Assembly: GCA_965220935.1 (NCBI GenBank)
Contig: OZ244857.1
Span: 3,047,998 to 3,111,997 of the forward strand
Source: Rhodothermales bacterium
GTDB taxonomy: Bacteria; Bacteroidota; Rhodothermia; Rhodothermales; Bin80
Length of the DNA: 64,000 nucleotides
Reading direction: 5' to 3'
Both the position numbers and the translations under genes were made by a program. A model generated the notes under the pieces. The model worked only from the letters and a program-made list of their open reading frames with translations. It did no database searches and was not told the origin of the DNA. Shown here piece by piece: positions 17,815 through 52,127 of the stretch; positions within the stretch are counted from its first letter, which is position 1; each line of letters starts with the position of its first letter.

Positions 17815-18649
17815 CTGATATTTCGGCTACAGACGATATGTTCATTCGTGTTGAATGTGTGCAGAATAAAATCAAGGTTACTCCTTAGGTGCCGGGATAG
17901 AGCTATCAGTTTATGAGTCATGTATCGCATTTGGGTTTAAGATAATCAAAGATTGACTATTGACTACGTACAAATCGTCCAGTATACACCGAAACTCCTG
18001 CGGTTGAGATTGCTTTTAATGGGTAGACGTAAACTCCTGCTGATAGTGTAATTTCAGTTAAATGAATTTCGCGATTCCAACCTGCTGACAGATCAAGTGG
18101 TGAATGCGAGTATACCCGACGCCCAGTCAAATCAAAAACTTCAACTTCTACGCGCGCCGTCCGTGGTAAATCAACACGCAGTTTTGTGGAACGATTAAAA
18201 GGATTCGGATAGTTTGAGTGTACAACGAATTCTGTTGGTAGGGATTCAAATACCTGAGATGATACTGGAGAGACTATTTCAATAGTGAACATCAAACTAT
18301 CATAAGATCCATTTGTATCTGTAGCACGATAGATCATCTGTACGGGTGGTGTCACATGGGTTGGAGTTCCATCAATAGTGCGATTCGTTACATCAAATCG
18401 GAGTCCAGATGGAAGATCACTACTGTTAAGGAAGTATTGAATTGGAGGTGCTCCCGAGTCCAGTGCGGGTAACACCAAAGGAGCAATCGGAAGTGCACGG
18501 GGATAAGATTGGGGAGCAATCTCACTGGAAAACGAGACAGTACATGTGTTCCCACTCACATACAAAATACTGTTTAACCAATTTTGAAACTCTGGACTTG
18601 GTGGTGAACATAAACCTAAATTTGAATCAAAATGCAGATTTTTAATATT

Positions 18650-19560
18650 TTTAAGTTGTAAAAAGCTTTGAGGTAGTACACCCGTCAACTGGTTACTTGA
18701 TATCCATAAATTTCTCAAATTAGATAGGTTACCGAGTTCTGGGGGAATCTCACCCGTTAACTGATTATTTCCCAGACTTAAATGTTCCAAACTATCGAGG
18801 CTACCGAGTTCTGGGGGAATCTTACCCGTTAACTGGTTGGCGTGCAGACTTAAATTTTCCAAATTAGATAGGTTGGCGAGTTCTGGGGGAATTTCACCCG
18901 TCAACTGGTTTACGAACAGCCATAAATCATCCAAATTAGAGAGGTTACCGAGTTCAGCAGGAATCTCACCCGTTAATTGATTAGTTTGCAGCCTTAAAGT
19001 TTCCAAATTAGATAGATTACCGAGTTCAGCAGGAATCTCACCCGTTAACTGATTATTTCCCAGCCTTAAAATTCTCAAATTAGATAGGTTGCCGAGTTCT
19101 GGGGGAAATTCGCCAGTCAACTGGTTACTGTTTAGATACAACTTTTCCAACTTAGAGAGGTTACCGAGTTCAACAGGAATCTCGCCCGTCAAGTGGTTGC
19201 CGTACAGCCATAAATTTTCCAACTTAGAGAGGTTACCGAGTTCAGCAGGAATCTCGCCCGTTAACTGGTTATCATATAGACTTAACTGCCAGAACTGAGA
19301 CAGGCTTCCGAGTTCAGCAGGAATCTCACCCGTTAACTGATTATTTCCCAGACTTAAAGTTTTCAAATTAGATAGATTACCGAGTTCAGCAGGAATCTCA
19401 CCCGTTAATTGATTATAAGCCAGACTTAAAGTTTCCAAATTAGATAGGTTGCCGAGTTCAGCAGGAATCTCGCCCGTCAACTAGTTATGGTTCAGCCTTA
19501 AAGTTTCCAAATTAGATAGGTTGCCGAGTTTGGGGGGAATCTCACCAACTAGGTTGTTGT
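18650..19560 (-). repeat. About 15 tandem 72-nt (24-aa) coding repeats, leucine-rich repeats of the LGNLSNLxxLxLxxNQLTGEIPxE type
   Basis: The 72-nt periodicity is visible in the DNA (..gttaccgagttcagcaggaatctcacccgttaactg..) and in the protein. Confidence 0.85.
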
Positions 19561-20729
19561 TTGTCATTCGTATTGAGATTTCTCCATCTCTGGTATATAT
19601 CCCATACCATTGATTAAAGTCATCCTTATTCTGTGGGATTTGATCTTTATCCCACCCAGAATTGTCCGTCCACTGATCTCCATTGGTGGATGTATATAAC
19701 GCAATAAGACTCTCGTGAATTGCCCTTGCAGAAGTACCAATAGTGATATTGAAATAAAGGGATATCGTATTTAAGTTAGAATCCCGTACTGTATAGATAT
19801 ATTCAGAATGTCTCGTACTAGTTGTTGGTATACCCGAAAGAGTTCTTGTACTGGGATCAAAACTTAATCCTTCAGGCAACTCGGGAGAGATCGTGTATGT
19901 TAATGGTTTTTGTCCACCAATTAACTCAGGCAATTGAATTTCAAAGGACACACCTAAAGAAAGATCCAGAGTTTCAATAGGAGCAGTGAATGTAAATGTT
20001 TCAATTTGGTTAGTATTGATTGCCCATACACCCCGACCATGTGTTCCTAGTATGATCTCATCATCTCGGATTTTCATTTGCCAAATAGCAACGGGAGGCA
20101 GGCCGTCATCAACATAATGCCAAGACTGACCACGATCTGTGGATCGAAATAGACCAATTTCTGTTCCAACCCAGAGTGTATTTGGTGCGTGGGGCATGAC
20201 GATCATATCGTATACAGCTACATCTGGAAACCCATTATTACTTTCGTGATTATTTCCAAATCCTGATAAATCAGTCCAGGTCTCTCCGTAGTCTCAAGTC
20301 TCTATAATCTTTGGATGATTGGGGGCGGAAAAGAGTGCATATGCGGTGGCAGGCTCATGAGGATGGGTAGCCAAACCAGATGCAACATAGCTCAACTTAA
20401 ATTTTTTCAGCTCTGGAATTTGAGAATAAGAGTTTCCACGATCTTTTGATTTATAGCCCTGGCCTGTTTCTGATCCACAAAGAATCCAAATTACCGATGG
20501 ATTTGCCTTAGAAACTTCAATTTTAGTGTAACTTCTGCAGGTCAAATTCAAAGGAGTATGATACCAAGTATCTCCAAAATCTCGAGAGTAATAGACTCCA
20601 TCTGACTTCGTAGTGTATACTTCATTAGGAGACAGATCACTACTTGCCAAATTCGTAAAGAACTGGCCGTTCTCTGTATCCCGGGACATTACTGGTGAAA
20701 ATGAATGATCACCATCAGTACTTTTATAG

Positions 20730-22125
20730 GGGAATTATATACGTGAGTAACCATCTATTAGACGACTACCTGTTGCGTATCCATTTCACGGATCATAGGA
20801 GTTCCTAACGGAAACGCTCCTCCACGTGCAGATGCCCCAATCCCGGAGGCCTGTAATACATTCGCAGATGCATTGATATCTGCGTGATCCGTATGGCCAC
20901 ATGCCATACACTCAAATTTACTTTGTGTCTTACGGTTGACTTTATCTGTATGACCACACTGGTTACAGCGTTGACTGGTATACTTCGGATCAACAAGAAT
21001 CACGTTGCCGAACTTGTAATCGCAATAAGTATTGAACCGCCCCCATCCAGCGTTCTGTATGACGCGGTTCAACCCCGCCTTCGCCCTCACATTGGTTCCA
21101 GGGTTCTCAACCGTGCCCTTAGCGGACTTGGACATGTTCTTGATCTTCAAGTCTTCACGTTTCAACGTATACGCCTTATTGGACAATCTACGGCTATGTT
21201 GATGTGCCGCATTCGTTCTGCAATTCTTCTGTTTTCGCTTCCACTTGTTGATTTTTCGCAAGGATCTACCAGATCCTTTCTGCTGTCGGGCTAACTTTCT
21301 TTGCCACCGACGAATCTTAATCTCCTTATCCGTTAAGTCAGGGATCGGTAACATGCCCTGTTCACCATCCGTTGAGGAATAAGAAATGTTATAGGTATTC
21401 AAGTCAATGCCAATCTCTTTGCCATCGTCCACCTTCTCTGGTAGATTAGTGACTTTGTAAATTACGCTCATCTTCCAGTACCGTCCGTCTTTCTTCACGG
21501 TGACTTCAATCGGCTCACCGTCTGGATAAGGATTACCTCCTTTCCTACGAAACTTCACCCAGCCAATCTTCTGGATATAGACATCATTCCCTCGGATCTT
21601 AAACAATCCTTTGGTCGCCGTAAACGAATTGTGTTGAAACCGATTATGGAACGTAGGATGATCACGTAATCCCTTGAAGAAAGCCTGCCACGCCTCTGCC
21701 TGATGCTTTAAGGTGTTTCGTACAATGTTGGACGAATACCGATTCAACCAAGAAATGGTTGGGCGAAAAGAAGTGTATCTCCTACTTAATGACGGCCAGG
21801 TCAATTCTGGATTATCCTTATGTTCGTCTTTATAGTCCCTGTTGATTTGGTCAAGAAACGTATTCCATACAAACCTACATGCTCCACAAAGACCTGACAA
21901 GAGATGGGCTTTCCACTGCGTGCCGGGTAATAGACGATACTCTATTCCACGATAGGAACAGTTTGAACCCGAAGGGTTAGAAGCCTTTTGAACAGGCATG
22001 ATATCAAGGTTACGTTGGTGTTATGGTAAGCAATAGGGTAGACTGCGTATCTATCCTATTGTGTCTGTTAAACTTTGCCAAAATAGAATGGTTCCATTCT
22101 TTGGGTACTCACGTATATAATTCCC
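20730..22125 (-). mobile_element. IR-bounded 1396-bp element carrying only tnpB, flanked by the 8-bp TSD TTTTATAG
   Basis: The IRs are GGGAATTATATACGTGAGTAACC (20730-20752) and, as revcomp of 22103-22125, GGGAATTATATACGTGAGTACCC. The direct repeat TTTTATAG lies at 20722-20729 and 22126-22133. The host frame is restored on conceptual excision. Confidence 0.8.
20758..21999 (-). CDS. tnpB: TnpB-type RNA-guided endonuclease (OrfB_IS605 / OrfB zinc-ribbon family), apparently intact
   Basis: The RuvC triad candidates are GIDLN, LKREDLKIKNM and HADINASANV. The zinc ribbon is CNQCGHTD...CMACGHTD. The N-terminus YRLLPGTQ...CGACRFVWN is TnpB-like. Confidence 0.85.
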   Translation of the reverse strand: MPVQKASNPSGSNCSYRGIEYRLLPGTQWKAHLLSGLCGACRFVWNTFLDQINRDYKDEHKDNPELTWPSLSRRYTSFRPTISWLNRYSSNIVRNTLKHQAEAWQAFFKGLRDHPTFHNRFQHNSFTATKGLFKIRGNDVYIQKIGWVKFRRKGGNPYPDGEPIEVTVKKDGRYWKMSVIYKVTNLPEKVDDGKEIGIDLNTYNISYSSTDGEQGMLPIPDLTDKEIKIRRWQRKLARQQKGSGRSLRKINKWKRKQKNCRTNAAHQHSRRLSNKAYTLKREDLKIKNMSKSAKGTVENPGTNVRAKAGLNRVIQNAGWGRFNTYCDYKFGNVILVDPKYTSQRCNQCGHTDKVNRKTQSKFECMACGHTDHADINASANVLQASGIGASARGGAFPLGTPMIREMDTQQVVV

Positions 22126-23385
22126 TTTTATAGATTCCAGAGTATTGAGTCGTTCCAAGTACCAGATCAGAATTGGTTTTATGCCAGACTGCATCAAATC
22201 CGTCGCCTCCTATGACATGTTCCCAATAACTATCAGATTCTGGATCATGTTGGGACAGGGAGGTTCCATTATCCTGAGTTCCACCAATATATATAGATTC
22301 GCCAGGCTTCTTTGCGATTCCATAAAATTGAGATGTATTATAGCCAGAATTGTTCCTATCCAATTCATCAAAATATCGTCCCTTGTTTTCAGAAATTGCC
22401 ACCCCTCCGTCATTTGTATTAAATATCCAAAACTTCTCATTGAGAGAGTCTACTACAAATGGTTGAATAACATGGTGATCAACATGGGCTGCTTGATCAA
22501 CATTAACTCCCCAATCTATAATACGTGTGGGCGACCCATTATGCGAGTCTGTAACGATAATACGATTCATGGTTACACCCCCAACGAGCACTATATTCGG
22601 ATCAAAAGGATGAACAGCAAGACAGTTATTATGATATCCTTGTTGTCGCATCCAATTAACAGGCTCGGATGACCGATCAATTGTTAAGATCCAACTTTTC
22701 CCTGCATCATAACTTTTGTAAAGATTCGAAATCCTATCTTGGTATACCGCTGCGTAGGCAATCTGTGGATTCGAAGGTGAAAAAGCTAATTCTGCACGGT
22801 GCACCGAATGTCCAAATGGATCGTGCACTCTCGTCCAATTGAGTCCACCATCAACGGAATAGTATGAGTGATTATGAAATCTACCTGATGCTGCAATTTG
22901 CATATTAAAATTATCAGGCTGCGAAAGTAAGCTAACAATCTCTGCCCGCCATCCACAGCACACACGAGTCCAAGTAGATCCGCCATCTTGCGTACGAAAT
23001 ACCCTCTGTTGGTACCTGCAATTACCACATTTGGGTCACTTGGATCAACTAATAGTCGATATACATCTTGAAAGTTTTTGTTTCCAAACGTTGATTGTAA
23101 ATGCTCCCATCTTACTCCTCGATCGCTGGTTCGAAAAATTCCATAACCAAAACTAGAAAAATCCTCTCCCCAAGCCGACCCGCCTGTGCCAAGATACATT
23201 AGGAATTATATACGTGAGTAACCAAACTTTAGAAAGGGCTTCCCCAGCGCCATAATTAGCTGTTTTTTTATTTTTTCTTGAGCGTTCTCGGGGGTGTGTT
23301 CATGATGATCTTCGCAAAGTCCCCCGGATGCATTGGGATATATCCACTAAGGCTACTCAGATCCTTTGGAGGCCGACCGCGCGGC

Positions 23386-24184
23386 TTACTGGCTTTCTTC
23401 TTGGGGGGTGCAGGTTTCGGTTTGTTGGTTGAGTTCATAATATTTGAATCTCTTGAAATAATTATCTATCTCATCTTGCATATCTATTCCAGCTCTTCGA
23501 AAAGAATTTAACAGGTTTTGGTATGCGTTTTCTCCGCCGAGAAAATTCCAAAATTCCTCAGCGACCTTTATTTCAGCATCCAAATCAATCATTCCAGCCA
23601 TTGTCCACCGTTCATATGGTTTGGGATCATAGGGGTTATAAGGGATGGCAAGGTAAGATTGAACTTTTGCATCTGGATTTTTATATAGAAACCCACTCCA
23701 AAAGAGTTCGCTTAAAATCCTTGAAATTACTCTTATTGGGTTTGACTGTTTTGAGATCAAATAAGTGGAATACTCCATAATGATCTTGGACGGCCAAGTC
23801 AACCTTTACAGGCTTTGATGTGACAATTTCCCCCTGTGTGCAAACCGATCTGATTCTCTCAATCTCCTTGTTTTTATTGGGATTGGCTCCACCAGATAAG
23901 GTATCAATAATTTCTTGGATTACGGATTGTGCCTCTTTCGAAATATGTTCCCCAACAATATATTGCTCTTTGACAAAGGGGAAATGAGGTGTAGCAAGAG
24001 CTTCAGCAGCTGGTTGGAATATTGAAGTTCCAAATGTAGTGTTAAGAGAATGAATAAAAGAAAAAAGTGCCATCCTATCCTCACCTAACAATCTGTGATG
24101 AAATGGTTTATGCTTGGTCTTAGGTTTATATGATGCAAATTTCTTCCGTAAACTCTTCTTAATAATGTCTTCAATGTTTGTCAT
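23386..24184 (-). pseudogene. Type II restriction endonuclease (TdeIII-like by recollection) with one frameshift
   Basis: Track ORFs 23681..24184 and 23386..23802 are two frames of one gene. The join is at ..FKRTLLEWVSI* / ..YKNPDAKVQSYLAIPYNPYDPKPYERW within tctatataaaaatcc (~23690-23705). A D...DLK pattern is present (KVDLAV...LFDLKTVKPN). The gene starts 9 nt after the MTase stop. Confidence 0.55.
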
Positions 24185-24193
24185 GATATCCTA

Positions 24194-25822
24194 TCAACGC
24201 ATATGGAATATAGTCTCTGAATACGCGGCTTTATCCTTTTCTGTTCGATTGAGAACTGGTCGCTTATACTTATTCAGTATTTCCATTCCAGCCAACTTTG
24301 CAATTTCGGGATAAAGTTCGTACTTATCATTTGCGACTAAAAATACGTTGTAATTATCTGAAAAATATTTTTTGCAATTTAGCAAGACAGTAGATATAGA
24401 TTCAACATAGGTTTTTCTGGCCATCATTCCCTGTCCTTGAGAGAGTGGGCCTATTTCTTTTTCGTCACTTCGAGGATAGTTGAAAAGTTCATAGGCGTAT
24501 GCGTGTTGTTCATGATAATCAATTAGGCCAACATAGGGAGGACTTGTAAATATCCCCTGTATTCCCCGGTCATGAATTAAATCTTTGAATTGTTTATGTT
24601 TACTCCCAAGTGCATTTACTATATCAACATTTCTGGAATCTCCTTGTAAGCAATGTTGGTAGGTATGGGTTCTGATTCTATCAAATGAATGTAGGCGTGT
24701 TAAAGTATCTTGACTATATCTTTTCCACCATGATCTCACTGAAAATAGAGGCTTACATATTTTCCCATGTTTTCTGCAATAATACGGAGCAGTCACGGGT
24801 TTCTTTAATGTAGCTAAATCAGAATGCCTTGTAGCACGGCAGGAGCGAACAGTTCGACTCAGAATGACTTCCAGTACTTTTCTGGTATTTAGACAATTAA
24901 CTTTTTCTATCTGAGTAAAAAGAAAATCTATCTCAGACAGAACTGGAGCTAAACACCATTTACATAGATACTCACGTGTATCTGTAAAATTATCATTTTG
25001 AATCTTAACTTGATATTTACTGATCAAGTCATTATAGATAGATAATATTTCCTTTTCTCGATCAACTGAGTATGCTTTTTCATCAATCTTTCCTGTACGA
25101 ATCAGTCTCTTAAATTCTGGCGATGGGTAGTGCAGCTTGTTAAACCCCTTTAAGACATCTGATAGCTCTAATTCAAATTTCACATTGCACTCATCAATTC
25201 CATGCTGAAAAAACAGTGAACTTATTCGATCAATTTCACTGCTCAATTTGACTATGTTATGCTTTGAAGTTTTGACGTTTGCTATGAGAGTGTTAAATAC
25301 TGATACATCAAGTCCAATAGCATGAATCCCCATCTCATTTGCTTGTACAAGTGTTGTACCGCTTCCACAAAATGGATCTAATACAATATCTCCCTCGCAA
25401 AAAAAGACTTCTTTTTTGTACTTATCAGTCTTTTGATCAAGAAAATACTCAACTAATTGTGGAATGAACTTCCCTTTGTAAGGATGAAGTCTATGTACGT
25501 GTTTAGTTGTGTCTTTTTCTCTAAGTGAGTCAAATGAAAGCCTCCAATTCAAATCCTGACCCAACTTGGATTTCCATTCAGATTCCTTGGAATCAACCTG
25601 ATCTTGATAATAATGTGCTAAATCTGCTAAACTTACATAAGTAGCCCTCTCGACAACGTATTTTTTGACACGGCCGTATTGCACCAAGTAAGATATGTTT
25701 GCAGGCGTGATTTCCCTTTTCAGGAATTTTGATGCCCATGAACTTGCTTGTTTAAGATCAACTAAATCTGATTTGTCCTTATTGGATTCAAAAAGAGAAG
25801 GAAGCATAGGATAAGGGTTCAT
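24194..25822 (-). CDS. N6-adenine/N4-cytosine DNA methyltransferase, alpha-like motif order (I ... TRD ... IV)
   Basis: Motif I is VLDPFCGSGTTLVQANEMG and motif IV is IFTSPPYVGLIDY, about 270 aa later. Its ATG overlaps the transposase stop (ATATGA at 25819-25824). Confidence 0.8.
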   Translation of the reverse strand: MNPYPMLPSLFESNKDKSDLVDLKQASSWASKFLKREITPANISYLVQYGRVKKYVVERATYVSLADLAHYYQDQVDSKESEWKSKLGQDLNWRLSFDSLREKDTTKHVHRLHPYKGKFIPQLVEYFLDQKTDKYKKEVFFCEGDIVLDPFCGSGTTLVQANEMGIHAIGLDVSVFNTLIANVKTSKHNIVKLSSEIDRISSLFFQHGIDECNVKFELELSDVLKGFNKLHYPSPEFKRLIRTGKIDEKAYSVDREKEILSIYNDLISKYQVKIQNDNFTDTREYLCKWCLAPVLSEIDFLFTQIEKVNCLNTRKVLEVILSRTVRSCRATRHSDLATLKKPVTAPYYCRKHGKICKPLFSVRSWWKRYSQDTLTRLHSFDRIRTHTYQHCLQGDSRNVDIVNALGSKHKQFKDLIHDRGIQGIFTSPPYVGLIDYHEQHAYAYELFNYPRSDEKEIGPLSQGQGMMARKTYVESISTVLLNCKKYFSDNYNVFLVANDKYELYPEIAKLAGMEILNKYKRPVLNRTEKDKAAYSETIFHMR

Positions 25823-26811
25823 ATTGCCCTTGAACCCCGTTTCGTTTTGCGTGTGAGTTGCTTGTAGGTGATCTCTTTATCAAACAACCCCTTCGCGGTC
25901 AATTCCATCTGCTTGATGGTGTCATATTCTCTGATATTATGCCGACCAGTAAACTCATTCACGTAGCGCTGTAAATGCTTGGGAGACATTCTGTGATACG
26001 TGCCATAGTAGCCACGCTTCAACAACGACCAGAAACTCTCCATGCCGTTGATATGGTCATCTCCGTCTACATATTCTTTAACCGAGTGCTTCACCGTTTT
26101 ATGCGCTGCCCTTTTGAGCGCTTGGTATCCTCTGAAATCATCTGTATAAGTTACAGCATCTTCCTTTGACGTACTGTTTACAAACTCTGCAAGGGTCTCG
26201 CCAGTCGTATCTGTAACTACTTTGGCTTGTACCTGCTTTGTCCCTCTATCCCTTGTTCCTACCACAGTCGTCTTGCCAACAGGCCCTCTACCTGTGCCTT
26301 CTAATTCCTTTCTCTTAGCATTACTCATATTCTTGCGCTTCCCGCCCACATAAGTTTCGTCTATCTCTACTTGGCCAAGAAACATCTTCATATCCTCTCT
26401 CCAGCTCTCACGGATCCGATGCGCCAGATACCAAGAACTCTTCTGCGTTATATTCAGATCACGGTGCATTTTCATACTGGACGCTCCCTTGATCCCTACA
26501 TTGAGAATATAGATTGCCAGTACCCAAATCTGATAATCCATTTTGGTATCTTCCATAACCGTTCCAACTCTCACACTGAAGAATTTACGACATTTTGGGT
26601 TTCTGCACCGGTAGTTCATGGAAGGATGCTTTGCGCCGACCTGAACATTGGTGCAACCACAATGAGGGCAAGTTGGAGTATTACCCCAGCGCTTCTTTGC
26701 AAACCACTTTTCAGCCGACTCACTATCAGGAAACATCTTCAAGAGTTTCACCCAAGAGATACCCGCCCGGTGGTATTGACCTGGTCCTGTCCGTTTCTTT
26801 GATTCTGACAT
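25819..26811 (-). CDS. IS1595-family DDE transposase (zinc-ribbon + ISXO2-like DDE domain), apparently intact
   Basis: It has the N-terminal Zn ribbon CPHCGCTN...CRNPKCRKFFSVRVGT. The catalytic-region motifs are VEIDETYVGG, TYTDDFRGYQAL and HINGMESFWSLLKR. Confidence 0.85.
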   Translation of the reverse strand: MSESKKRTGPGQYHRAGISWVKLLKMFPDSESAEKWFAKKRWGNTPTCPHCGCTNVQVGAKHPSMNYRCRNPKCRKFFSVRVGTVMEDTKMDYQIWVLAIYILNVGIKGASSMKMHRDLNITQKSSWYLAHRIRESWREDMKMFLGQVEIDETYVGGKRKNMSNAKRKELEGTGRGPVGKTTVVGTRDRGTKQVQAKVVTDTTGETLAEFVNSTSKEDAVTYTDDFRGYQALKRAAHKTVKHSVKEYVDGDDHINGMESFWSLLKRGYYGTYHRMSPKHLQRYVNEFTGRHNIREYDTIKQMELTAKGLFDKEITYKQLTRKTKRGSRAI

Positions 26812-26892
26812 TGTAAGTATGTGTTTGAATTAAATCCTTATGCGGACTTGGTTACTCAAAGTTCCAAAAATACATAGAATTTCTAAAATAAA

Positions 26893-27498
26893 TTAGGCGG
26901 GCGATTGCTGAACTTTGTTTTGACGAACTTTCGTTTTATTTGCATTGTAGTCGTCCAATTTTATCCATTTTATTGGAGACAAAAAAGGAGATAAAACTCC
27001 CCACTGCGCAAACATCTTTTGAACCCAATTTACATGCCACACCTCTTCCGTATATCCAAGAGATTCACAAAGCTCATTATGACTTATAATACTGGCAACC
27101 TCTAAGTCTGGTGGAGAATCTTGATCTATTTCCAGCCTTAATGCAAGAAAATGTTCAGCCATAGATTCGTCTTTCTTCTTTGATGTTGTCATTTTCATAT
27201 CTAAACGAATAAAATGCTTTGTCAAGATGTCATGAATTGCTGCCATTTTTCCGGGTTTATAGATCAAGTCCAGTGTAGAAATTAGAATAATTAGTACTGG
27301 AAAAACAAACTTATAAAATTCACCTTCTTGCGAAAATAAATAGCCAGAAATAGCTGTTAATACAATTATTAACAACGAAGTTACTTTAGAAAAAAACTCA
27401 TAATACCTTTGACGTGCACTATTGTATCTGGCTAATCTTTGAACATCAAATTGTACATCATCAAAATCTACATTTGAGCGATCCTTGAGTAGTGTCAT
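26893..27498 (-). CDS. Two-TM membrane protein, SLATT-like (tentative)
   Basis: An N-terminal helix (RLARYNSARQRYYEFF) is followed by two TM helices (VTSLLIIVLTAISGYLF, FVFPVLIILISTLDLIY) and a soluble tail. The layout resembles SLATT 2-TM effector domains from memory. Confidence 0.4.
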   Translation of the reverse strand: MTLLKDRSNVDFDDVQFDVQRLARYNSARQRYYEFFSKVTSLLIIVLTAISGYLFSQEGEFYKFVFPVLIILISTLDLIYKPGKMAAIHDILTKHFIRLDMKMTTSKKKDESMAEHFLALRLEIDQDSPPDLEVASIISHNELCESLGYTEEVWHVNWVQKMFAQWGVLSPFLSPIKWIKLDDYNANKTKVRQNKVQQSPA

Positions 27499-28266
27499 TT
27501 TTTAGGAGGCGGTTTTGGAGCAGGGTTATATTTTTGTCCAGATCCAGATCCTTTCCTTGTTCGAGTAGGGTTGCTTGGCCGATCTGGCTTAGGCTGTTTC
27601 CCCTTCTTGTTATTTTGTTGTTTTGCAATTACCAAACAACTAAATAACAATTAAATCCATTTACCGAAAGTTTGGTTACTCACGTATATAATTCCCATAC
27701 ATTACATCATGATTACTCTCGGCCATGGCTAACTACTCACATTCAAAGAGGGGAAATGATCGGTCTGAGGCTTCCAAGACCTGCCTCCGTCAGTGGTTTT
27801 CCACAATCCACCCGATACAGAACCTGCCCATATGGTCTCAAGCGTTGGGTCATCAGGATCAACAATCAGTGCTCGCGTTCGGCCTCCTACATTTCCAGGA
27901 CCGCGCTCAACCCAATTAAGTGGTTTAGAAGTTTTAGCCTGACTTAATGCCTTATTGAATTCTATGACTTGGTAGCCAATCGGGTACTCATTGCCACCAT
28001 TGATAGGTTGCCGAATAAGACGGTGGTATTCGGCATATTTATCGGGGTTGCCTTCCTCATTATCAAACAATTCATCCTCAGGAAGATGAGGTTTGTTATT
28101 AGATACAGACCAGATGGCAATCATTAGAAGGAAAATCACACCAGCCGCAATTGCGATGTGAATTGAACCCCGATTATTGAACATCACCAAAAACTACCAA
28201 ACAAATCTAATGCGGAAGTTCAAAAACCATCATCCGGCGATAACAATAAAACCACAGACGATGGCG

Positions 28267-44650: not shown

Positions 44651-44656
44651 ACAAAC

Positions 44657-45235
44657 CTATACCGTAATCTCTCCTTCATACGGACCATTTACATTGTCTT
44701 GATCAGAAGCAATAGTGACCGCTCCGCCAAATCTCATATAACCGTTTATTGTAGGCGCACCTGTGGTAAACGTAGTACTTGACACTCCAGCTGAAAAACT
44801 TGGTGCCGTCCAAGCGTCACTAGAACCGTTGTCGTCGGAAACAGCCCAGTTCGGTGTTAATGCAATTTCCACTGGTGTTCCTGCACGGTTTTCGAGGTTG
44901 GTTGGATATGTAACCGTGACTGCGATTGCACTTACATTTGTCCCATTTACTCTGAGACTACCAATTTTATGATTACCATCGTCTCCAGGGGTATAGCCTG
45001 TTATGTCTGGAGTACCTGCAGAGGCAGTGAACGTTGCGGTCGCCGTTCCAGTGGCTGGCCTATATAATGTGCCAAAGTCCAACGTAGTATTTTGACTAAG
45101 TATACAATTCCCCTGAGTACTACCAATCGTTAATGATACCTCAACATCGTCGTTAGGGGCAAGATCCTGAGCGTGTGCGCTCGTAAGGGCAATCACACAT
45201 GTGAAAAGAAAAATGGAAAGAAATTTTTGAATCAT
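44657..45235 (-). CDS. DUF4402/SCPU-like pilus subunit, duplicated copy B, truncated 8 codons early
   Basis: Its first 46 aa are identical to copy A. It ends ..GPYEGEITV* where copy A continues EVTCTQAS (GAG versus TAG). Confidence 0.55.
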   Translation of the reverse strand: MIQKFLSIFLFTCVIALTSAHAQDLAPNDDVEVSLTIGSTQGNCILSQNTTLDFGTLYRPATGTATATFTASAGTPDITGYTPGDDGNHKIGSLRVNGTNVSAIAVTVTYPTNLENRAGTPVEIALTPNWAVSDDNGSSDAWTAPSFSAGVSSTTFTTGAPTINGYMRFGGAVTIASDQDNVNGPYEGEITV

Positions 45236-45401
45236 GATTTCAATGTCTAATTACAGTTAGTGGTTTGAACTTGTCCGTTTTCAGTCCAAGTTTCAATGCA
45301 CGCCGATGGATCTTTAAATGCTGTCACTTCAATAGGTCAAGCATATTTGAATCGTTGGTACCGCAATCTCTCCAGAATTCCCCTGATGAACTGGCCTCCA
45401 C

Positions 45402-46001
45402 TTAGGAAGCCTGCGTGCATGTAACCTCTACATCAATCTCTCCTTTATACGGATCATTTTCATTGTCTTGATTAAAAGCAATAGTGACCGCTCCGCCAAA
45501 TCTCATATAACCGTTTATTGTAGGCGCACCTGTGGTAAACGTAGTACTTGACACTCCAAGTGAAAAACTTGGTGCCGTCCAAGCGTCACTAGAACCGTCG
45601 TCGTCGGAAACAGCCCAGTCCGGTGTTAATGCAATTTCCACTGGTGTTGCTGCACCGTTTTTGAGGTTGGTTGGATATGTAACCGTGACTGCGATTGCAC
45701 TTACATTTGTCCCATTTACTCTGAGACTACCAATTGTATGATTACCATCGTCTCCAGGGGTATAGCTTATGTCTGGAGTATCTGCAGAGGCATTGAACGT
45801 TGCGGTCGCCGTTCCAGAGGCTGGCCTATATAATGTGCCAAAGTCCAACATAGTAATTGGAGTAAGTATACAATTCCCCTGAGTACTACCAATCGTTAAT
45901 GATACCTCAACATCGTCGTTAGGGGCAAGATCCTGAGCGTGTGCGCTCGTAAGGGCAATCACACATGTGAAAAGAAAAATGGAAAGAAATTTTTGAATCA
46001 T
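45402..46001 (-). CDS. DUF4402/SCPU-like pilus subunit, duplicated copy A (likely major subunit)
   Basis: It has a signal peptide ..LTSAHA, VEVSLTI, NCILTPITMLDFG and the C-terminal MRFGGAVTIAFNQDNENDPYKGEIDVEVTCTQAS. Confidence 0.55.
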   Translation of the reverse strand: MIQKFLSIFLFTCVIALTSAHAQDLAPNDDVEVSLTIGSTQGNCILTPITMLDFGTLYRPASGTATATFNASADTPDISYTPGDDGNHTIGSLRVNGTNVSAIAVTVTYPTNLKNGAATPVEIALTPDWAVSDDDGSSDAWTAPSFSLGVSSTTFTTGAPTINGYMRFGGAVTIAFNQDNENDPYKGEIDVEVTCTQAS

Positions 46002-46012
46002 GATTTCAATGT

Positions 46013-46681
46013 CTAATTACAGTTAGTGGTTTGAACTTGTCCGTTTTCAGTCCAAGTTTCAATGCACGCCGATGGATCTTTAAATGCTGTGACTTGAATA
46101 GGTCGAGCATATTTGAATCGCTGGCGGTTGATTTCGCAAGCTGCAGATTCTGACGGACCGCCATACGAGAGAGCCGATGGGTCATATCCCCATAACTCTA
46201 CGCGGACCGAAGACGCGTTGCGCTTCAATAAAATATTCATGTTATCTGCCGAATAATGGGTGTCAATCGCATTAATGCAGATTCCTGCTATGGTGGCGCC
46301 TGGATCTTCTTCCATGTGAGCAGTAATGAGGTCTTGTGACGTGACTTCCCTGATCACATCATATCGAAAATCAACCTCAAGATCCCACTGGGCAATCATT
46401 GACCGCAATGATGGGGGAATAAAGTCTCCAATGTAGTGGACATCCAAAGTAGGATTTATGATCAGTAGATCATCTGGTCCATAGCCGTTAGACGTAATAT
46501 CCACCATCTGTATGGATGTCAGCTCAGATGGTATTGGTATAATCAGATCTGTGAGAATCTCATTCATGACGGCGCGATCAGTAAGTGTCGCCACTGGGCG
46601 AGTAATCTGGTCAAATGACTGTCCCATAGATACCGTTGAAATGATCAGAAGCAGTCCAGAAAGAATTGAAAATATCTTCAT
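46013..46681 (-). CDS. Secreted hypothetical protein, first gene of the pilus-like operon
   Basis: I trimmed the track ORF to MKIFSILSGLLLIISTVSMGQ (signal peptide). It ends ..ACIETWTENGQVQTTNCN with a penultimate Cys like the subunits. Confidence 0.45.
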   Translation of the reverse strand: MKIFSILSGLLLIISTVSMGQSFDQITRPVATLTDRAVMNEILTDLIIPIPSELTSIQMVDITSNGYGPDDLLIINPTLDVHYIGDFIPPSLRSMIAQWDLEVDFRYDVIREVTSQDLITAHMEEDPGATIAGICINAIDTHYSADNMNILLKRNASSVRVELWGYDPSALSYGGPSESAACEINRQRFKYARPIQVTAFKDPSACIETWTENGQVQTTNCN

Positions 46682-47194: not shown

Positions 47195-50100
47195 TAGTGC
47201 CTGACAATAAACTCTAATTCTGGGTTAGCATAGGATCGCAAGGGCTATATTTTACAAGTACTTACCGATAGTTTGCTTGTTCATTTTGCGGTTATTTTAG
47301 GCGTTGAAGATTTTTCATGAAAAAATCGAAACTTTTCCTGTGGCGGTGGATATCACTGTATTTATAGGACTTTTCTGGGGTTTTTCTTTCTGAATTGATC
47401 AAGATTTGAAAAATCTTCACCGTTCATTTAATTACATCATTGACTATGCGCGCACAATTTGACACTGAACCGACACTGGGGATGGCTTCCATTGAGGATA
47501 TGTTTGTAGATCCTCAGACGACACGTCCCAAATCATCTTGGCATTGCAGTCCATCTGGATGGCCACAGATCTACGGGATCGGATTGTCATGTACCTGCAA
47601 GAGGCGATCGGAGAGAACACAGATCAAAACACCGGGTTTGACGTACTGGCGTATCTTTGTCTTAGCCGTACTAAAATTCGGGCTTGATTATGATTTTGAC
47701 CGATTGACGTTTACGGTTAATGACTCTGCGCTCATTCGCACCTTATTACAAAATGATACGAGTGATTTTGGTCATGAGTCCTTGTATCGTGTGCAGACGA
47801 TGATCAACAATGTAAGTCTGATCACCGATGACATTTGGTCCACCCTCAATCGGATGATCGTGGATCATGGGTTAGAGGTCTTTGGAGTTGCGTCCGATGC
47901 GCCTTTGGAAGCGCGGACGGATTCGTATGTGGTGGACGCCCCATGATGTTCGGTTATTACGCGATTCAATCATTCTGGCGATGCAGATTGCTTCAAAGGC
48001 CTGGGAGGCCTTCAATTTGGGGGCGTACGACATTGCAGGTTGGCGTCAGTTAAAGCATTTGATCATTACGGTTAACAATGCCTATTTGGAGATCAACACC
48101 ACCAAAAAGCGTGAGACGAATCCAGAGCTGGTCTCAGCAATTCCCACTAAGTTTAAAACTTCCCACCATAGCGCACTTTGGGGCCTATTGTTAAACGTGA
48201 GTTTCGTAAACTATTTTGCTGAATTTTCGTCAGAAGAGCACATTTTGGACGTTATAACGACTCATCGATCAACTAGGCATTTATTTGAGGGCAATGGTTC
48301 TTCATGCGAGGCTGGTTAATTATTCTGCGGCTCATTTGTGTATTAGTTATGATTGATTCCATCATTTCACTACATTCTATCATCAATGAAACGGACGTCA
48401 CGCAAGTATTTTCACAAGAAACATTTGATTCACACCATCCGCAGCTGTTTTGAGCAGATTGAGGATACGAACGTGTCACGGGGATTTACACTGGTGGATT
48501 ACCTGATGTCGGGGTTTGCTCATTTGAAGTGTGCTTGAATTTGATCAAAAGATTCGCAATGGTTCTCCTGCGATCATCGCCAACATGAAGCGTCTGTGAA
48601 CCATGTGCCCAGTGATTCGGGTATGCGCAAGCGTCTTGATGAAGTGGATCCGTTCAATTTGCGTGGTGCTTTCAAAAAGATCTTTGCTCAATTGCAACGG
48701 GGAAAGATACTGGAGGGTTTTCGGTATATTGAGAATCATGTACTGCTTGCCATAGACGGAACCGGCATGTTTTCATCCAAGTCGGTCCACTGCCAGCATC
48801 GCAATGGAACGAAGACCTATTTTCATCACATGTTATGTGCTGCGTTGGTTCATCCGTTCAAAAAGATCGTAATTCCTCTGATGCCCGAGTCGATCATCAA
48901 GAGCGATGGCGCCACAAAAAATGACTCTGAGCGCAGTGCATGCAAGCGATTCTTGGAGTATTTTCGGCGAGAACACCCTCATTTGAAGACGATTGTGGTC
49001 CAAGATGGACTCTTTTCCAATGCGCCCCATCTTCGGCTTTTAGGGTGTCTTAATTTAAGATATATCATTGGAGCGAAGCCTGGAGATCATACGTTCATGT
49101 TTAACTATATTGATCGCAGTGACCAGACCCAAGAGGTGGTGATGGAGGTTGAAGGAATTCAGTATCGTTTTCGCTATAACAACGACGCCAACGCATCCAA
49201 TCGGCGGGTCAATTTTTTAGAGGTATATGAAACCAGGCGCGGGACCAAGAAGCACTCTAAACCCAGAACAACGCGTTTTTCTTGGGTGACCGATATTCCC
49301 CTTGATGAGAAGAATCTTCTGAAGATCATGCGAGCGGGCCGGTCACGGTGGAGAATTGAAAATGAAACCATCAATACCCTCAAGAATCAGGGCTACAATT
49401 TTGAGCATAATTATGGGCACGGTTACAAGCATTTGTCCACGGTCTTTGCCTGCCTGATGATGCTGGCCTTTTTGGTGGATCAGGTAGAACAACTCTGTGA
49501 TGTGTTGTTCCATGATGCCTTGGAGAGCATGGGGCGACTCAAGTATCTAAGAGAGCGCGTGCGAAACCTGTTTCGGGAGTTTGTTTTAGAGAGTTGGGAG
49601 TTTCTATACCTGGGGATAGCGAAGGGATTTAGGGTTACTGTAGACATTGATTCATCGTAGCGGAAACCAGAGCAGTAGGGGCAGAACGTGAACCCCTGAT
49701 TATATGAGAGGGGCTGGGTGTGGTGTGTCCAGTCGTCAGAACGCACAGAAAAAAGGATCAGAAAACGTCCGATTATTGCAGGAATTGATCCTCAAAAACA
49801 AGCAAAACCCGCCAGATTTGCAGAAGATGTACCTGAAATACTAGATCAACTAAATTCTATGCCGTTAGTGGGAATTGCTGAGCTGGTCTTAGCCTTGATT
49901 TGTTACTATCGGATTCAGAAGTGTATACTGGTCTTGAATAAGATCAAAGAACTTGACCCAAGTTCAAGTCGGATTGCGCCATTAGAAAAGGTGATTGAAC
50001 AGTTCAATCGGTTGGTAGATTTGGTTCATCGTCGTGTAATAGAGGGGGAAAAGATTCCCAATGCAGAGAAGTTATTATCGCTCCATGCCGAGCATACGCG

Positions 50101-50247
50101 TTGGATTGTCAAGGGGAAGGCCATGCCCAATCAGGTGGAGTTGGGGGTGCCCGTCGCGATCACCCAATGTCAACATGGCTTGATTCTTGGATGGGAGATC
50201 ATATGGACGCAATCAGATGTAGATATGACCATTGAGATCGCCACCAA
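47195..50247 (+). mobile_element. ISNCY-like insertion sequence, copy 2 (diverged from copy 1), frameshifted, interrupted by another IS and truncated at its 3' end
   Basis: The left IR is TAGTGCCTGACAATAAAC at 47195. Track ORFs 47440..47946, 47882..48319 and 49718..50254 are collinear with copy 1. Homology to copy 1 stops at 50247. Confidence 0.55.
48136..49879 (+). mobile_element. IS4-superfamily-like DDE element nested inside ISNCY-like copy 2, with a frameshifted transposase
   Basis: The 15-nt IR is AGCAATTCCCACTAA (48136-48150; revcomp of 49865-49879). The target GAGCTGGTCT(C/T) is duplicated at 48125-48135 and 49880-49890, and the uninterrupted site is visible in copy 1. Transposase pieces are 48353..48538 and 48596..49660 (..RSRWRIENETINTLKNQGYNFEHNYGHG..). 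Confidence 0.6.
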
Positions 50248-50311
50248 GATATAATAGAAAGGAAGATTCCCTCAGAAGTGTTATTTTTCGAGGTAACCAA
50301 ACTTTCATTTC

Positions 50312-51344: not shown

Positions 51345-51590
51345 GCAATAGTGAAAATTTCTTTAACCTCATAAGAGGTGCGATGTTGAGAGCATTTAAC
51401 CGCGATACTAGATTTATCTTACAGGGGACTCGGAAATTAAAGATCTATTTTAGATCTACAACTCAAAGAAATCAAACCTTGTATCAATACACTTGCAGTG
51501 ATTAGGATAACGCCACCGTTGCCGAAACCTCCATATCTGAAGGGTGTATACCATACTAAACGAAACCCAGTATCTCCGAACTTTTTATTT

Positions 51591-51785
51591 GGGAATTATA
51601 TAGATGATTACGCAAACCACCTATCCATTTGACGGGTTCTCGGAGTTCCTAACGGAAACGCTCCTCGCCGTCCATTCAACACCGCTAGTTTGTGCGGTAG
51701 ACATCGCCAATCCCGAACGTAACGCTCCAAATATACGATTTTTTCATAATAAAACAATTCATGCGTGATCATCTCTATAATTCCC
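51591..51785 (-). mobile_element. 195-bp MITE of the GGGAATTATATA family, flanked by the 8-bp TSD TTTTATTT
   Basis: The IRs are GGGAATTATATAGATGATTACGCA (51591-) and, as revcomp ending at 51785, GGGAATTATAGAGATGATCACGCA. The direct repeat TTTTATTT lies at 51583-51590 and 51786-51793. The interior segment 51622-51715 is homologous to the tnpB 3' end (20778-20845). Confidence 0.75.
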
Positions 51786-52127
51786 TTTTATTTCATCAAA
51801 TTAGGTTGCCTGATTAATTTGTATCTGACATTACATTATTCTAGTTTGCGGTATCAAGATAATCCCCAAATAGAATAAAATCGTGGAATGGTTATTTCGT
51901 ATTGATTCAACTTTTTGACTTGACTGATTATCCCGTGCAGATGCATTAGGTTGTTTTTCTAACATCATGAAAGGGATCATTTCTTTCACTCACAAGATTA
52001 ACCACGCATCAAAGGATTGTTTTTCCATTGACGCTCGTTATGCAGAGAAAAAGAAACTTTTTATCTGCCTAAGCATTACACTGGGCTACCTTTAATATAA
52101 CGCGTCAATCAAAACGCTTAATTCAAT

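What the first reader, a model, noticed from the sequence alone, without database searches (positions are those of the whole stretch)
51583..51793. A 195-bp MITE of the same family retains the IRs plus the 3' end of tnpB (candidate guide-RNA scaffold)
What the sequence shows:
- The 24-nt IRs, GGGAATTATATAGATGATTACGCA and revcomp GGGAATTATAGAGATGATCACGCA, share their first 12 nt with the IRs of the two larger elements.
- There is a perfect 8-bp TSD, TTTTATTT.
- Interior segment 51622-51667 aligns to 20778-20823, the last codons of tnpB.
- The alignment includes an identical 25-mer, GGAGTTCCTAACGGAAACGCTCCTC, which can fold as GGAG-TTCC-loop-GGAA-bulge-CTCC.
- A second shared block, CCAATCCCG, lies further in.

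What I infer:
- Internal deletion removed the protein but kept exactly the region where TnpB omega-RNA scaffolds are normally encoded.
- This parallels omega-RNA-retaining PATE/MITE derivatives of IS200/IS605.
- It supports a functional RNA overlapping the tnpB 3' end and independently confirms that this IR family transposes with 8-bp TSDs.
Basis: partly seen in the sequence, partly recalled or inferred. Interest (0 to 1): 0.7.

Follow-up and report, generated by a model that had tools for sequence, protein, structure and literature searches.

The report
Protein-less transposon keeping a guide-RNA scaffold
A 195-bp gene-less mobile element keeps the inverted ends that a transposase recognises plus a complete copy of the folded guide-RNA scaffold normally encoded at the end of a TnpB nuclease gene, so it could borrow both enzymes from its larger relatives.

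Summary
The MITE is 51591-51785, with 24-nt inverted repeats (IRs), a perfect 8-bp target-site duplication (TSD, TTTTATTT) and a 53-nt stretch 85% identical to the tnpB 3' end of element 1 (E1).

The IR family belongs to IS1595, not IS200/IS605. Element 2 (E2, 23202-27696) carries an IS1595-type DDE transposase and has the same IRs as the TnpB-only E1.

I aligned 25 tnpB 3' regions, with no MITE among them. They support an omegaRNA-like fold by covariation: 91.7% of cells paired against 57% or less when partners are slid, and 12 pairs with compensatory changes. The last ~14 nt of the RNA are the tip of the IR. These nucleotides form a pseudoknot with a 5' GGGAUU loop, as in the solved ISDra2 omegaRNA.

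A covariance model built from that alignment matches the MITE end to end (positions 1-111 of 111, 70.3 bits, E 4.5e-16). It also matches a second MITE copy in another Rhodothermales genome, at a different site with its own TSD.

The MITE is not a deletion of E1 itself. Its parent was a diverged TnpB element, and it carries a 26-nt hairpin insertion.

Transcription, TnpB binding and the target-adjacent motif (TAM) are untested. The closest analogue is the omegaRNA-encoding PATE of IS200/IS605. I rate this a new variant of a known kind.

The parts
51583..51590 (.). Left copy of the 8-bp target-site duplication, TTTTATTT
   Evidence: identical to 51786-51793
51591..51614 (+). Terminal inverted repeat at the RNA-3' end of the MITE (GGGAATTATATAGATGATTACGCA). 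On the minus strand it supplies the loop and 3' strand of stem H3 and the 3' strand of the pseudoknot.
51591..51721 (-). Complete omegaRNA-like scaffold (131 nt, including a 26-nt insertion)
   Evidence: Model R1 positions 1-111 of 111, 70.3 bits, E 4.5e-16, no non-standard pairs. The MITE was not in the training alignment A3.
51709..51714 (-). GGGAUU, the 5' strand of the pseudoknot.
   Evidence: Pseudoknot columns 8-13 pair with the 3' terminus in 87% of cells, and 2-3 pairs change on both sides. The single-sequence fold also pairs it with the 3' end.
51677..51700 (-). MITE-specific insertion that forms its own hairpin (UACCGC/GCGGUG). It lies between the GGGAUUGG block and stem P1.
   Evidence: 26-nt insert state in the model alignment; hairpin in the minimum-energy fold; absent from all tnpB-linked copies
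51631..51672 (-). Stem P1 (GACGG at 51668-51672 with CCGUC at 51631-51635) enclosing hairpin P2 (51642-51664: GGAG-CGU-UUCC-GUUA-GGAA-CUCC)
   Evidence: The outer P1 pair is G-C in the MITE and L004 but C-G in E1, a compensatory change. P2 covaries in 3 of its 4 inner pairs.
51600..51624 (-). Stem H3: a 10-bp hairpin, AUAGGUGGUU-UGCGU-AAUCAUCUAU. Its 3' strand is the inner part of the IR.
   Evidence: All 5 pairs of the homologous stem change on both sides in alignment A4.
51591..51597 (-). AAUUCCC, the 3' strand of the pseudoknot and the outer tip of the IR; the last scaffold nucleotides before the flank
   Evidence: same geometry as the ISDra2 pseudoknot, nt -5 to -3 pairing with -103 to -105 (PMC10097598)
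51571..51590 (-). Predicted guide, if the RNA reads through into the flank (AAAUAAAAAGUUCGGAGAUA; its first 8 nt are the TSD). Inferred only.
   Evidence: Placed by analogy with TnpB omegaRNAs, where the guide begins at the transposon end. The sequence is unique in the window.
51728..51757 (-). AT-rich segment with a Bacteroidota-style promoter-like match (TTG, 16 nt, TATATTTG), ending 6 nt before the scaffold start. A hint only.
   Evidence: Coordinates. TAnnTTTG also lies 25-68 nt upstream of several ORF starts in the window. The sigma-70 scan found nothing here, and the L002 copy has TATACTTG.
51762..51785 (-). Second terminal inverted repeat (GGGAATTATAGAGATGATCACGCA read on the minus strand)
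51786..51793 (.). Right copy of the TSD, TTTTATTT
20730..22125 (-). E1: a non-autonomous element with terminal IRs that carries only tnpB (20758-21999, 413 aa). Its omegaRNA scaffold is at 20730-20851. TSD TTTTATAG.
   Evidence: Pfam finds Cas12f1-like_TNB, OrfB_IS605 and HTH_OrfB. D199, E282, D374 and the four zinc-finger Cys are invariant columns. Model R1 scores 114.7 bits.
23202..27696 (-). E2: the candidate autonomous partner. IS1595-family DDE transposase at 25819-26811, 29-nt perfect IRs matching E1's, TSD ATACATTA, and restriction-modification cargo.
   Evidence: (I13, I17, I18)

Best explanation
The 195-bp element is a MITE of an IS1595-family (DDE transposase) lineage whose non-autonomous members carry tnpB.

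Shown:
- It has the family's terminal IRs and an 8-bp TSD, and it has inserted at two or more different sites in different genomes.
- Between the IRs it keeps a full-length copy of the structured RNA encoded at the 3' end of the family's tnpB genes. That RNA has helix A, stem P1, hairpin P2, stem H3, and a pseudoknot between a 5' GGGAUU loop and the 3'-terminal UUCCC.
- In this lineage the transposon's IR is also the last ~25 nt of the RNA scaffold, so the RNA ends exactly at the transposon boundary.

Inferred:
- The MITE is moved in trans by an E2-like IS1595 transposase that binds the IRs.
- Its minus strand is transcribed, possibly from the TAnnTTTG-like motif 6 nt upstream of the scaffold, into a ~130-nt scaffold that runs on into the flank.
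- That flank (TSD plus adjacent bases) serves as a guide for a TnpB supplied in trans by related elements.
- On this reading the MITE exploits both the transposase and the RNA-guided nuclease, as omegaRNA-encoding PATEs are proposed to do in IS200/IS605.
For: 1. Anatomy of the MITE.
2. IS1595 link:
   - E2's ORF has DDE_Tnp_IS1595 (8e-40) and Zn_ribbon_IS1595.
   - E2's IRs match E1's (pairs I13, I17, I18).
   - A second transposase-plus-methylase element, in another genome, has the same IRs and an 8-bp TSD (L096).
   - The transposase cluster for this genome has a single member, while the TnpB cluster P0001 has 47 members.
3. RNA structure, from tnpB-linked sequences only:
   - 91.7% of cells paired, against 57% or less for slid partners.
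   - 12 of 28 pairs change on both sides; 0 of 500 shuffles reach this.
   - On 41 distinct sequences: 92.6% paired, 17 such pairs, covariation score 0.341 against 0.130.
4. Nucleotide-level rather than protein-level constraint: the same DNA is read in two different frames in different TnpB homologs.
5. The MITE matches model R1 over its full length at E 4.5e-16, and the L002 copy at 2.9e-15. Among 94 sources, all other hits lie at tnpB 3' ends.
6. The MITE differs from E1 in ways that keep the structure: P1 C-G becomes G-C, stem H3 is rebuilt as a perfect 10-bp stem, and the 26-nt insertion is a self-contained hairpin outside the helices.
7. E2 has no such RNA segment, so the transposase does not need it (only 12.9 bits, from the IR alone).
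8. The architecture matches the solved ISDra2 omegaRNA: a 116-nt scaffold, dispensable 5' sequence, and a pseudoknot between the nucleotides just before the guide and a 5'-proximal segment (PMC10097598).
9. PATEs that encode omegaRNAs are a precedent (bioRxiv 10.1101/2023.03.14.532601).
Against: - There are no expression data. The sigma-70 scan finds no promoter in the MITE, and the Bacteroidota-type motif is weakened in the L002 copy.
- The helix A region is remodelled by the insertion. A CUG that is invariant in all 25 tnpB-linked sequences is AUG in the MITE.
- Folding energy is no better than for shuffled sequence (z -0.66).
- Only two insertion sites are known.
- The two copies differ at 4 of 131 RNA positions and 5 of 64 other positions, which is not significant (p 0.16).
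- No conserved TAM-like motif lies next to the TSD at 15 insertion sites. How a flank-derived guide would find an empty site for a TSD-making transposon is therefore unexplained.
- The inner halves of the MITE's IRs differ from E2's (19 of 24 identical), so mobilisation by E2 itself is not certain.
Confidence: 0.6

Rival explanations
1. Inert relic. The MITE is an ordinary internal-deletion derivative moved through its IRs. The omegaRNA-like segment is left-over sequence that has not yet decayed, and it is neither transcribed nor used.
For: - No expression evidence and no sigma-70 promoter.
- Few copies are known.
- An invariant CUG is changed and helix A is disturbed.
- The difference in substitution density between the RNA part and the rest is not significant.
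- The two copies are 95% identical, so little time has passed in which to see decay.
Against: - The 5' deletion breakpoint coincides with the start of the scaffold module, which corresponds to the minimal ISDra2 scaffold.
- Compared with every sampled tnpB-linked relative the segment is well diverged (best match 91% over 44 nt), yet all 22 modelled pairs remain standard pairs.
- The two changes between MITE copies that fall in modelled structure are a loop change and a G-C to G-U change.
Confidence: 0.3
2. The retained ~100 bp next to one IR is a cis-acting DNA site needed for transposition, such as a subterminal transposase-binding or host-factor site, and not an RNA.
For: The conserved block adjoins and overlaps one IR, and stem H3 involves IR bases.
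Against: - E2 and the L096 element, which encode the transposase, lack this segment at both ends.
- Covariation is of the Watson-Crick and G-U kind between distant positions, which is expected for RNA and not for a protein-binding site.
- The segment lies at only one end of each element.
Confidence: 0.05
3. The MITE encodes a small protein. A 54-aa ORF on the minus strand (51608-51772) starts at an ATG inside the IR and ends in the TnpB C-terminal tail frame. A mirror 54-aa ORF lies on the plus strand (51604-51768).
For: Both ORFs are open in the window copy, and a gene caller annotated one of them in L094.
Against: - Neither ORF has a Pfam match.
- In L002 the minus-strand ORF is cut short by a stop and carries 3 amino-acid changes against 3 silent ones (read).
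- Having ORFs on both strands follows simply from an ATG and a TAA in the palindromic IRs.
Confidence: 0.03

Closest known systems
PATEs (palindrome-associated transposable elements) of IS200/IS605 that encode omegaRNAs (Meers et al., bioRxiv 10.1101/2023.03.14.532601)
   Same: A protein-less, non-autonomous derivative that keeps the transposon ends and the omegaRNA. It would need both the transposase and TnpB in trans.
   Different: PATEs have subterminal hairpin ends, no terminal IRs and no TSDs, and are moved by a Y1 HUH TnpA with scarless excision. This element has 24-nt terminal IRs and an 8-bp TSD, and belongs with an IS1595-type DDE transposase.
ISDra2 TnpB-omegaRNA (cryo-EM structure, PMC10097598; PDB 8H1J, 8EXA)
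   Same: - The E1 protein aligns with ISDra2 TnpB over nearly its full length (E about 1e-17).
- The scaffold is about 116-122 nt and overlaps the tnpB 3' end.
- It has several stems plus a pseudoknot between the last nucleotides before the guide and a 5'-proximal segment.
- It ends at the transposon boundary.
   Different: There is no detectable sequence similarity between the RNAs and no Rfam match. Here the 3' ~25 nt of the scaffold are a transposase IR. The TAM is unknown.
DDE-transposase-associated TnpB branches with inverted terminal repeats (Altae-Tran et al. 2023, PNAS, PMC10691335)
   Same: TnpB lies inside transposons with terminal IRs, its 3' end is near a transposon end, and solo TnpB elements share their ends with transposase-bearing elements.
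   Different: The accessible text names IS630, and a review adds ISL2 and IS1031 (PMC13565253). IS1595 is not named. No gene-less derivative that keeps the RNA, and no overlap of IR and scaffold, is described there. I could not read that paper's supplement, so overlap with one of its DDE branches is not excluded.
IS1595-family insertion sequences and their passenger-carrying members (ISfinder classification; from my own knowledge)
   Same: The DDE_Tnp_IS1595 and zinc-ribbon transposase, IRs starting with GG, 8-bp AT-rich TSDs, and frequent passenger genes (here a methylase and restriction enzyme in E2, and TnpB in E1).
   Different: TnpB plus omegaRNA as the passenger, and a MITE that keeps the RNA, are not features I know to be described for this family.
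Fanzor-carrying eukaryotic DNA transposons (PMC3627910)
   Same: A TnpB-family nuclease rides in cut-and-paste transposons that have terminal IRs and make TSDs.
   Different: Those are eukaryotic or viral hosts with different transposase superfamilies. Here the host is a bacterium of the order Rhodothermales.

Membership tests
MITE | Terminal inverted repeats | tested here: met
   24-nt IRs, 22 of 24 complementary
MITE | Target-site duplication of the length typical of the parent family | tested here: met
   Perfect 8-bp TTTTATTT here; the L002 copy has TAAAGTAG; E1, E2 and 15 other elements also have 8-bp TSDs
MITE | Small size and no coding capacity | tested here: inconclusive
   The element is 195 bp. 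Two mirror-image 54-aa ORFs exist but have no Pfam match, and one is truncated in L002.
MITE | Several copies at different sites, with ends shared with an autonomous element | tested here: met
   A second copy lies at a different site in OZ244061.1. The first 12 nt of the IR are identical to E2's, and 19 of 24 overall. Only two sites are known so far.
IS1595 family (for the IR family) | DDE transposase with the IS1595/ISXO2 catalytic domain and an N-terminal zinc ribbon | tested here: met
   E2 ORF 25819-26811: PF12762 at 8e-40 and PF12760 at 6e-07. NCBI names its homologs 'IS1595 family transposase'.
IS1595 family (for the IR family) | Terminal IRs with an 8-bp TSD | tested here: met
IS1595 family (for the IR family) | The transposase actually mobilises E1 and the MITE | not testable with these tools
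   Inferred from shared IRs only
TnpB omegaRNA | Encoded at or overlapping the tnpB 3' end and ending at the transposon boundary | tested here: met
   E1 scaffold at 20730-20851. Apart from the two MITE copies, all 44 model hits lie at tnpB 3' ends and finish at the IR tip.
TnpB omegaRNA | Conserved secondary structure supported by covariation | tested here: met
TnpB omegaRNA | Pseudoknot between the nucleotides preceding the guide and a 5'-proximal segment (PMC10097598) | tested here: met
   87% of cells paired and 2-3 pairs with changes on both sides, although the pseudoknot was not part of the model
TnpB omegaRNA | A variable guide follows the scaffold | tested here: met
   The flanks after ...UUCCC differ at every insertion. 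This is positional evidence only.
TnpB omegaRNA | Transcribed, bound by TnpB, and directs TAM-dependent DNA cleavage | not testable with these tools
   No RNA data. No TAM-like motif was found at 15 sites.
TnpB omegaRNA | Match to a curated RNA family | tested here: not met
   No Rfam 15 family matches at gathering score or at E up to 10
PATE of IS200/IS605 | Subterminal palindromic left and right ends, no terminal IRs, no TSD, insertion next to a fixed tetra- or pentanucleotide | tested here: not met
   The element has terminal IRs and an 8-bp TSD of variable sequence. It works like a PATE but is not a member.
TnpB (the E1 protein) | HTH, OrfB_IS605 (RuvC) and zinc-ribbon TNB domains with an intact D-E-D triad | tested here: met
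   Pfam. D199, E282, D374 and C345/C348/C364/C367 are invariant among 36 homologs. PDB ISDra2 TnpB matches at E 5e-17.

The most novel reading that the evidence does not exclude
A widespread bacterial lineage of cut-and-paste (IS1595-type DDE) transposons has fused its transposase-binding terminal IR with the 3' end of the TnpB omegaRNA scaffold. Every insertion therefore creates a new flank-derived guide. A gene-less MITE has kept this dual-use end, apparently with its own promoter, and so exploits both the transposase and the RNA-guided nuclease in trans. If this is true, it is a compact natural system for asking what RNA-guided cleavage does for a TSD-making transposon, where the scarless-excision logic of IS605 homing does not apply.
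Probability: 0.35. Interest if true: 0.75.

Novelty: new variant of a known kind. Interest (0 to 1): 0.6.

Why it matters
TnpB homing is understood for IS200/IS605 and IS607, which excise without a scar. Why TnpB sits in DDE transposons with terminal IRs is an open point in recent reviews (PMC13565253).

- This locus gives a concrete three-member set in one 64-kb window: an autonomous IS1595 element, a TnpB-only partner and an RNA-only MITE.
- The RNA scaffold and the transposase IR overlap, so two machineries constrain the same ~25 nt.
- The MITE shows that the RNA module can be kept without the protein.
- The ~120-130-nt scaffold with a defined fold, and a 413-aa TnpB with intact catalytic residues, may also interest people who mine compact editors.

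Tried and rejected
- Rfam, at gathering score over the whole window and at E up to 10 over both loci: nothing relevant.
- Sigma-70 promoter and terminator scan of 51400-52000: nothing inside the MITE.
- Folding energy against shuffles: uninformative for both the MITE and E1 (z -0.66 and -0.65).
- Exact-pattern scan of one genome per species for the MITE's IR: one further copy only. The source genome is evidently not the species representative there, so I could not count copies in the source genome.
- Metagenome scan with the TnpB profile: only relatives of 51% identity or less. These helped with covariation but yielded no new MITEs.
- Search for an empty site: the exact-protein look-up of the neighbouring FAA hydrolase failed. 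Its 100%-identical 216-aa form led to L094, which has the same MITE at the same site. The next orthologs are 79% identical or less, too distant to compare intergenic DNA.
- TAM search: no conserved motif in the 12 nt upstream of the TSD at 15 sites.
- Origin of the MITE's 45-nt AT-rich segment: no homolog in any fetched locus.
- The idea that the guide is the IR tip itself, because classical relatives end at ...GGATGTCAA and the IRs of distant members contain TGTCAAC: rejected. The terminal 14 nt take part in stem H3 and the pseudoknot, both of which covary.
- The idea that GGGAATTGTATA at 45101 and 45867 marks further element ends: rejected. Both lie inside a 766-bp tandem duplication of a DUF4402 gene.
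- Supplement of the PNAS TnpB survey: not held.

Full report
**Observation**

The element spans 51591-51785 (195 bp). Its ends are GGGAATTATATAGATGATTACGCA and, on the other strand, GGGAATTATAGAGATGATCACGCA (22 of 24 complementary). It is flanked by a perfect TTTTATTT duplication at 51583-51590 and 51786-51793.

The 12-mer GGGAATTATATA, allowing one mismatch, occurs 8 times in the window against 0.39 expected. Six of these are the ends of three elements:
- E1, 20730-22125, TSD TTTTATAG.
- E2, 23202-27696, TSD ATACATTA.
- The MITE.

MITE positions 51622-51674 are 85% identical to 20778-20830, including the exact 25-mer (family D11).

**What the IR family is**

E1 carries one ORF of 413 aa (20758-21999, minus strand).
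- It has the HTH_OrfB, OrfB_IS605 and Cas12f1-like_TNB domains.
- It aligns with the solved ISDra2 TnpB over almost its full length.
- It keeps the D-E-D triad and the zinc-finger cysteines, which are invariant among 36 homologs.
- Its stop codon lies 28 bp from the element end.

E2 has 29-nt perfect IRs that match E1's for 22-27 nt.
- It encodes a 330-aa protein with DDE_Tnp_IS1595 (8e-40) and Zn_ribbon_IS1595 domains.
- It also encodes an N6/N4 methylase, a frameshifted TdeIII restriction enzyme and an unknown 201-aa ORF.
- A similar transposase-plus-methylase element with the same IRs and an 8-bp TSD (TTAAATAT) sits in another Rhodothermales genome (L096).
- The transposase cluster for this genome has a single member, whereas the closest TnpB cluster has 47 members on one 4.1-Mb contig.

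The family is therefore IS1595 (DDE transposase, terminal IRs, 8-bp TSD). E1-type elements are non-autonomous partners with TnpB as passenger. The family is not IS200/IS605.

**How wide the architecture is**

I checked tnpB loci fetched by exact-protein look-ups and by a metagenome scan. Fifteen of them show IRs of the form GGG(A/G)(A/C)TTATAT... together with perfect 8-bp TSDs. These include TnpBs only 38-42% identical to E1's, from unrelated GC-rich metagenomes. More distant relatives end in the classical ...GGATGTCAA and have no IRs.

TnpB inside DDE transposons with terminal IRs has been reported in general terms. Six DDE branches, and solo TnpBs sharing their ends, are described in PMC10691335. 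IS1595 is not named in the text I could read, nor in a 2026 review.

**The RNA**

I aligned 25 tnpB 3' regions, with no MITE among them (alignment A3). A consistent fold emerges.
- Helix A: GCCU/GGGC.
- Stem P1: CACG(G)/(C)CGUG.
- Stem H3: AUACG/CGUAU. Its 3' strand is the inner part of the IR.
- A pseudoknot between GGGAUU in the loop of helix A and the terminal (A)AUUCCC, which is the IR tip.

| Measure | A3, 25 sequences | A4, 41 distinct sequences |
|---|---|---|
| Cells forming standard pairs | 91.7% | 92.6% |
| Same, with partners slid by 1-3 columns | 23-57% | 22-58% |
| Pairs with changes on both sides | 12 of 28 (0 of 500 shuffles reach this) | 17 of 28 |
| Covariation score, observed vs shuffled | 0.260 vs 0.127 | 0.341 vs 0.130 |

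A4 is the alignment of model hits, so it is fitted to the nested helices. It is not fitted to the pseudoknot, which still pairs in 87.5% of cells and has three pairs with compensatory changes.

The constraint acts on nucleotides rather than on protein. The same DNA is read as ...GGAFPLGTP... in most homologs and as ...RSVSVRNS... in others.

The architecture mirrors the ISDra2 omegaRNA (PMC10097598). That RNA has a 116-nt scaffold and a dispensable 5' region. Its pseudoknot pairs nt -5 to -3 with nt -103 to -105. No Rfam family matches.

**The MITE against that model**

Covariance model R1 has 111 positions and 22 pairs, and was built from A3.

| Target | Coordinates | Bits | E-value | Model span |
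|---|---|---|---|---|
| E1 | 20730-20851 (minus) | 114.7 | 2.7e-27 | 1-111 |
| MITE | 51591-51721 (minus) | 70.3 | 4.5e-16 | 1-111, no non-standard pair |
| MITE copy in L002 | 7261-7391 (minus) | 67.1 | 2.9e-15 | 1-111 |

Across 94 sources, every other hit lies at a tnpB 3' end.

- The 5' edge of the match (51721) is the start of the scaffold module, so the MITE keeps the whole unit and little else. The other 64 nt are the second IR plus a 45-nt AT-rich stretch with no homolog elsewhere.
- Compared with E1, P1 has a compensatory C-G to G-C change, shared with the P0033-type locus L004.
- H3 is rebuilt as a perfect 10-bp stem.
- A 26-nt self-folding hairpin is inserted between GGGAUUGG and P1.
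- The tnpB remnant reads ...GRRGAFPLGTPRTRQMDRWFA*, closest to P0033/P0052. The parent was therefore a diverged TnpB element and not E1.

E2 lacks the segment, so it is not needed for transposition.

**Mobility**

The L002 copy (OZ244061.1, a Rhodothermales MAG) lies in a different gene neighbourhood and has its own TSD, TAAAGTAG. It is about 95% identical to the window copy.

The neighbouring FAA hydrolase has orthologs only 66-72% identical in the other large Rhodothermales genomes. This points to recent horizontal spread of the MITE, which is an inference. A second assembly of the source organism has the same MITE at the same site (L094). I found no empty site.

**What is not shown**

- Transcription is untested. 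The sigma-70 scan is negative.
- A TTG-N16-TATATTTG match to the Bacteroidota-type -33/-7 consensus ends 6 nt before the scaffold start. The motif recurs 25-68 nt upstream of several ORF starts in the window. However, L002 has TATACTTG at this position, so this is only a hint.
- Folding energies are unremarkable.
- An otherwise invariant CUG is AUG in the MITE, and helix A is remodelled.
- The two copies differ at 4 of 131 RNA positions and 5 of 64 other positions (p 0.16).
- No TAM-like motif is conserved next to the TSD. How a flank-derived guide would serve a TSD-making transposon is therefore open. The field itself flags this question (PMC13565253).

**Verdict**

- The structural and homology part of the claim is very likely right, at about 0.9.
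- That the RNA is expressed and used by TnpB in trans is plausible but untested, at about 0.4-0.5.
- The closest known thing is an omegaRNA-encoding PATE. This element fails the PATE membership test because it has terminal IRs and a TSD, but it probably works like one.

I rate it a new variant of a known kind, with interest 0.6.

Noticed in passing
window 23202-27696: E2 is an IS1595-family transposon with cargo: a 542-aa N6/N4 DNA methylase (24194-25822), a TdeIII restriction enzyme split by a frameshift (23386-24184) and an unknown 201-aa ORF (26893-27498). It looks like a mobile restriction-modification system whose nuclease has decayed.
   Followed up: partly
window ~17957-23199 (possibly to 28190): A very large surface-protein gene has 72-nt-period leucine-rich repeats at 18600-19619 and sortilin/BNR-like repeats. 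E1 interrupts it, and the reading frame breaks in several other places. E2, inserted about 1 kb from E1, may interrupt the same gene, but its flanking ORFs have no Pfam match. The gene appears to be a pseudogene.
   Followed up: partly
window 6697-7586 and 47511-50253: Inverted repeats 74-98% identical link a region that encodes an IS4-like DDE_Tnp_1 transposase (48596-49660) to a partial copy 40 kb away. This is a second, unrelated IS family in the window.
   Followed up: partly
window 44654-46066: A 766-bp tandem duplication (95-98% identical) gives two DUF4402 ORFs. The two GGGAATTGTATA matches at 45101 and 45867 lie inside it and are not transposon ends.
   Followed up: yes
TnpB homologs P0019, P0025, P0056, P0057, P0022 versus the rest: The last ~25 codons of tnpB are read in two different frames in different homologs (...GGAFPLGTP... 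versus ...RSVSVRNS..PSNG) over nearly the same DNA. This shows that the RNA, not the protein tail, is the conserved entity.
   Followed up: partly
loci L009, L010, L016-L019, L021, L027, L033, L035 versus L031, L042, L053 and others: The IRs of distant TnpB elements contain GTTGACA about 19-25 nt from the tip. Its complement, TGTCAAC, is the motif at which the classical IR-less relatives end (...GGATGTCAA). The IR-bearing type may have arisen by adding about 18 nt beyond an IS605-like right end.
   Followed up: no
L085 4259-6046: In OZ244061.1 a TnpB element directly abuts an N6/N4 methylase gene and a remnant of an IS1595 transposase (38% over 63 aa). This echoes the E1-E2 proximity in the window and may reflect nested or clustered insertion.
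   Followed up: no
window 51591-51785 versus L002 7261-7455: The MITE copies are about 95% identical, although the neighbouring FAA hydrolase has orthologs only 66-72% identical in the other large Rhodothermales genomes. Two of the related MAG chromosomes come from the same ENA assembly (ERZ25070844). This suggests recent exchange of these elements between co-resident species.
   Followed up: partly
window 51604-51768 (+) and 51608-51772 (-): Two mirror-image 54-aa ORFs span the MITE. Each starts at the ATG inside GATGAT(T/C)ACGCA of one IR. Neither has a Pfam match. They are probably a by-product of the palindromic ends.
   Followed up: yes
window 20886-20907 (minus strand): The DNA encoding the RuvC-III motif (HADINASAN) can form a hairpin, GCAGAU-AUCAAUGC-AUCUGC. 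By eye it shows two apparent compensatory changes in L007 (GCGGAC...GGCCGC). It lies upstream of the scaffold module and is absent from the MITE. It may be a dispensable 5' stem or a coincidence of Ala codons.
   Followed up: no
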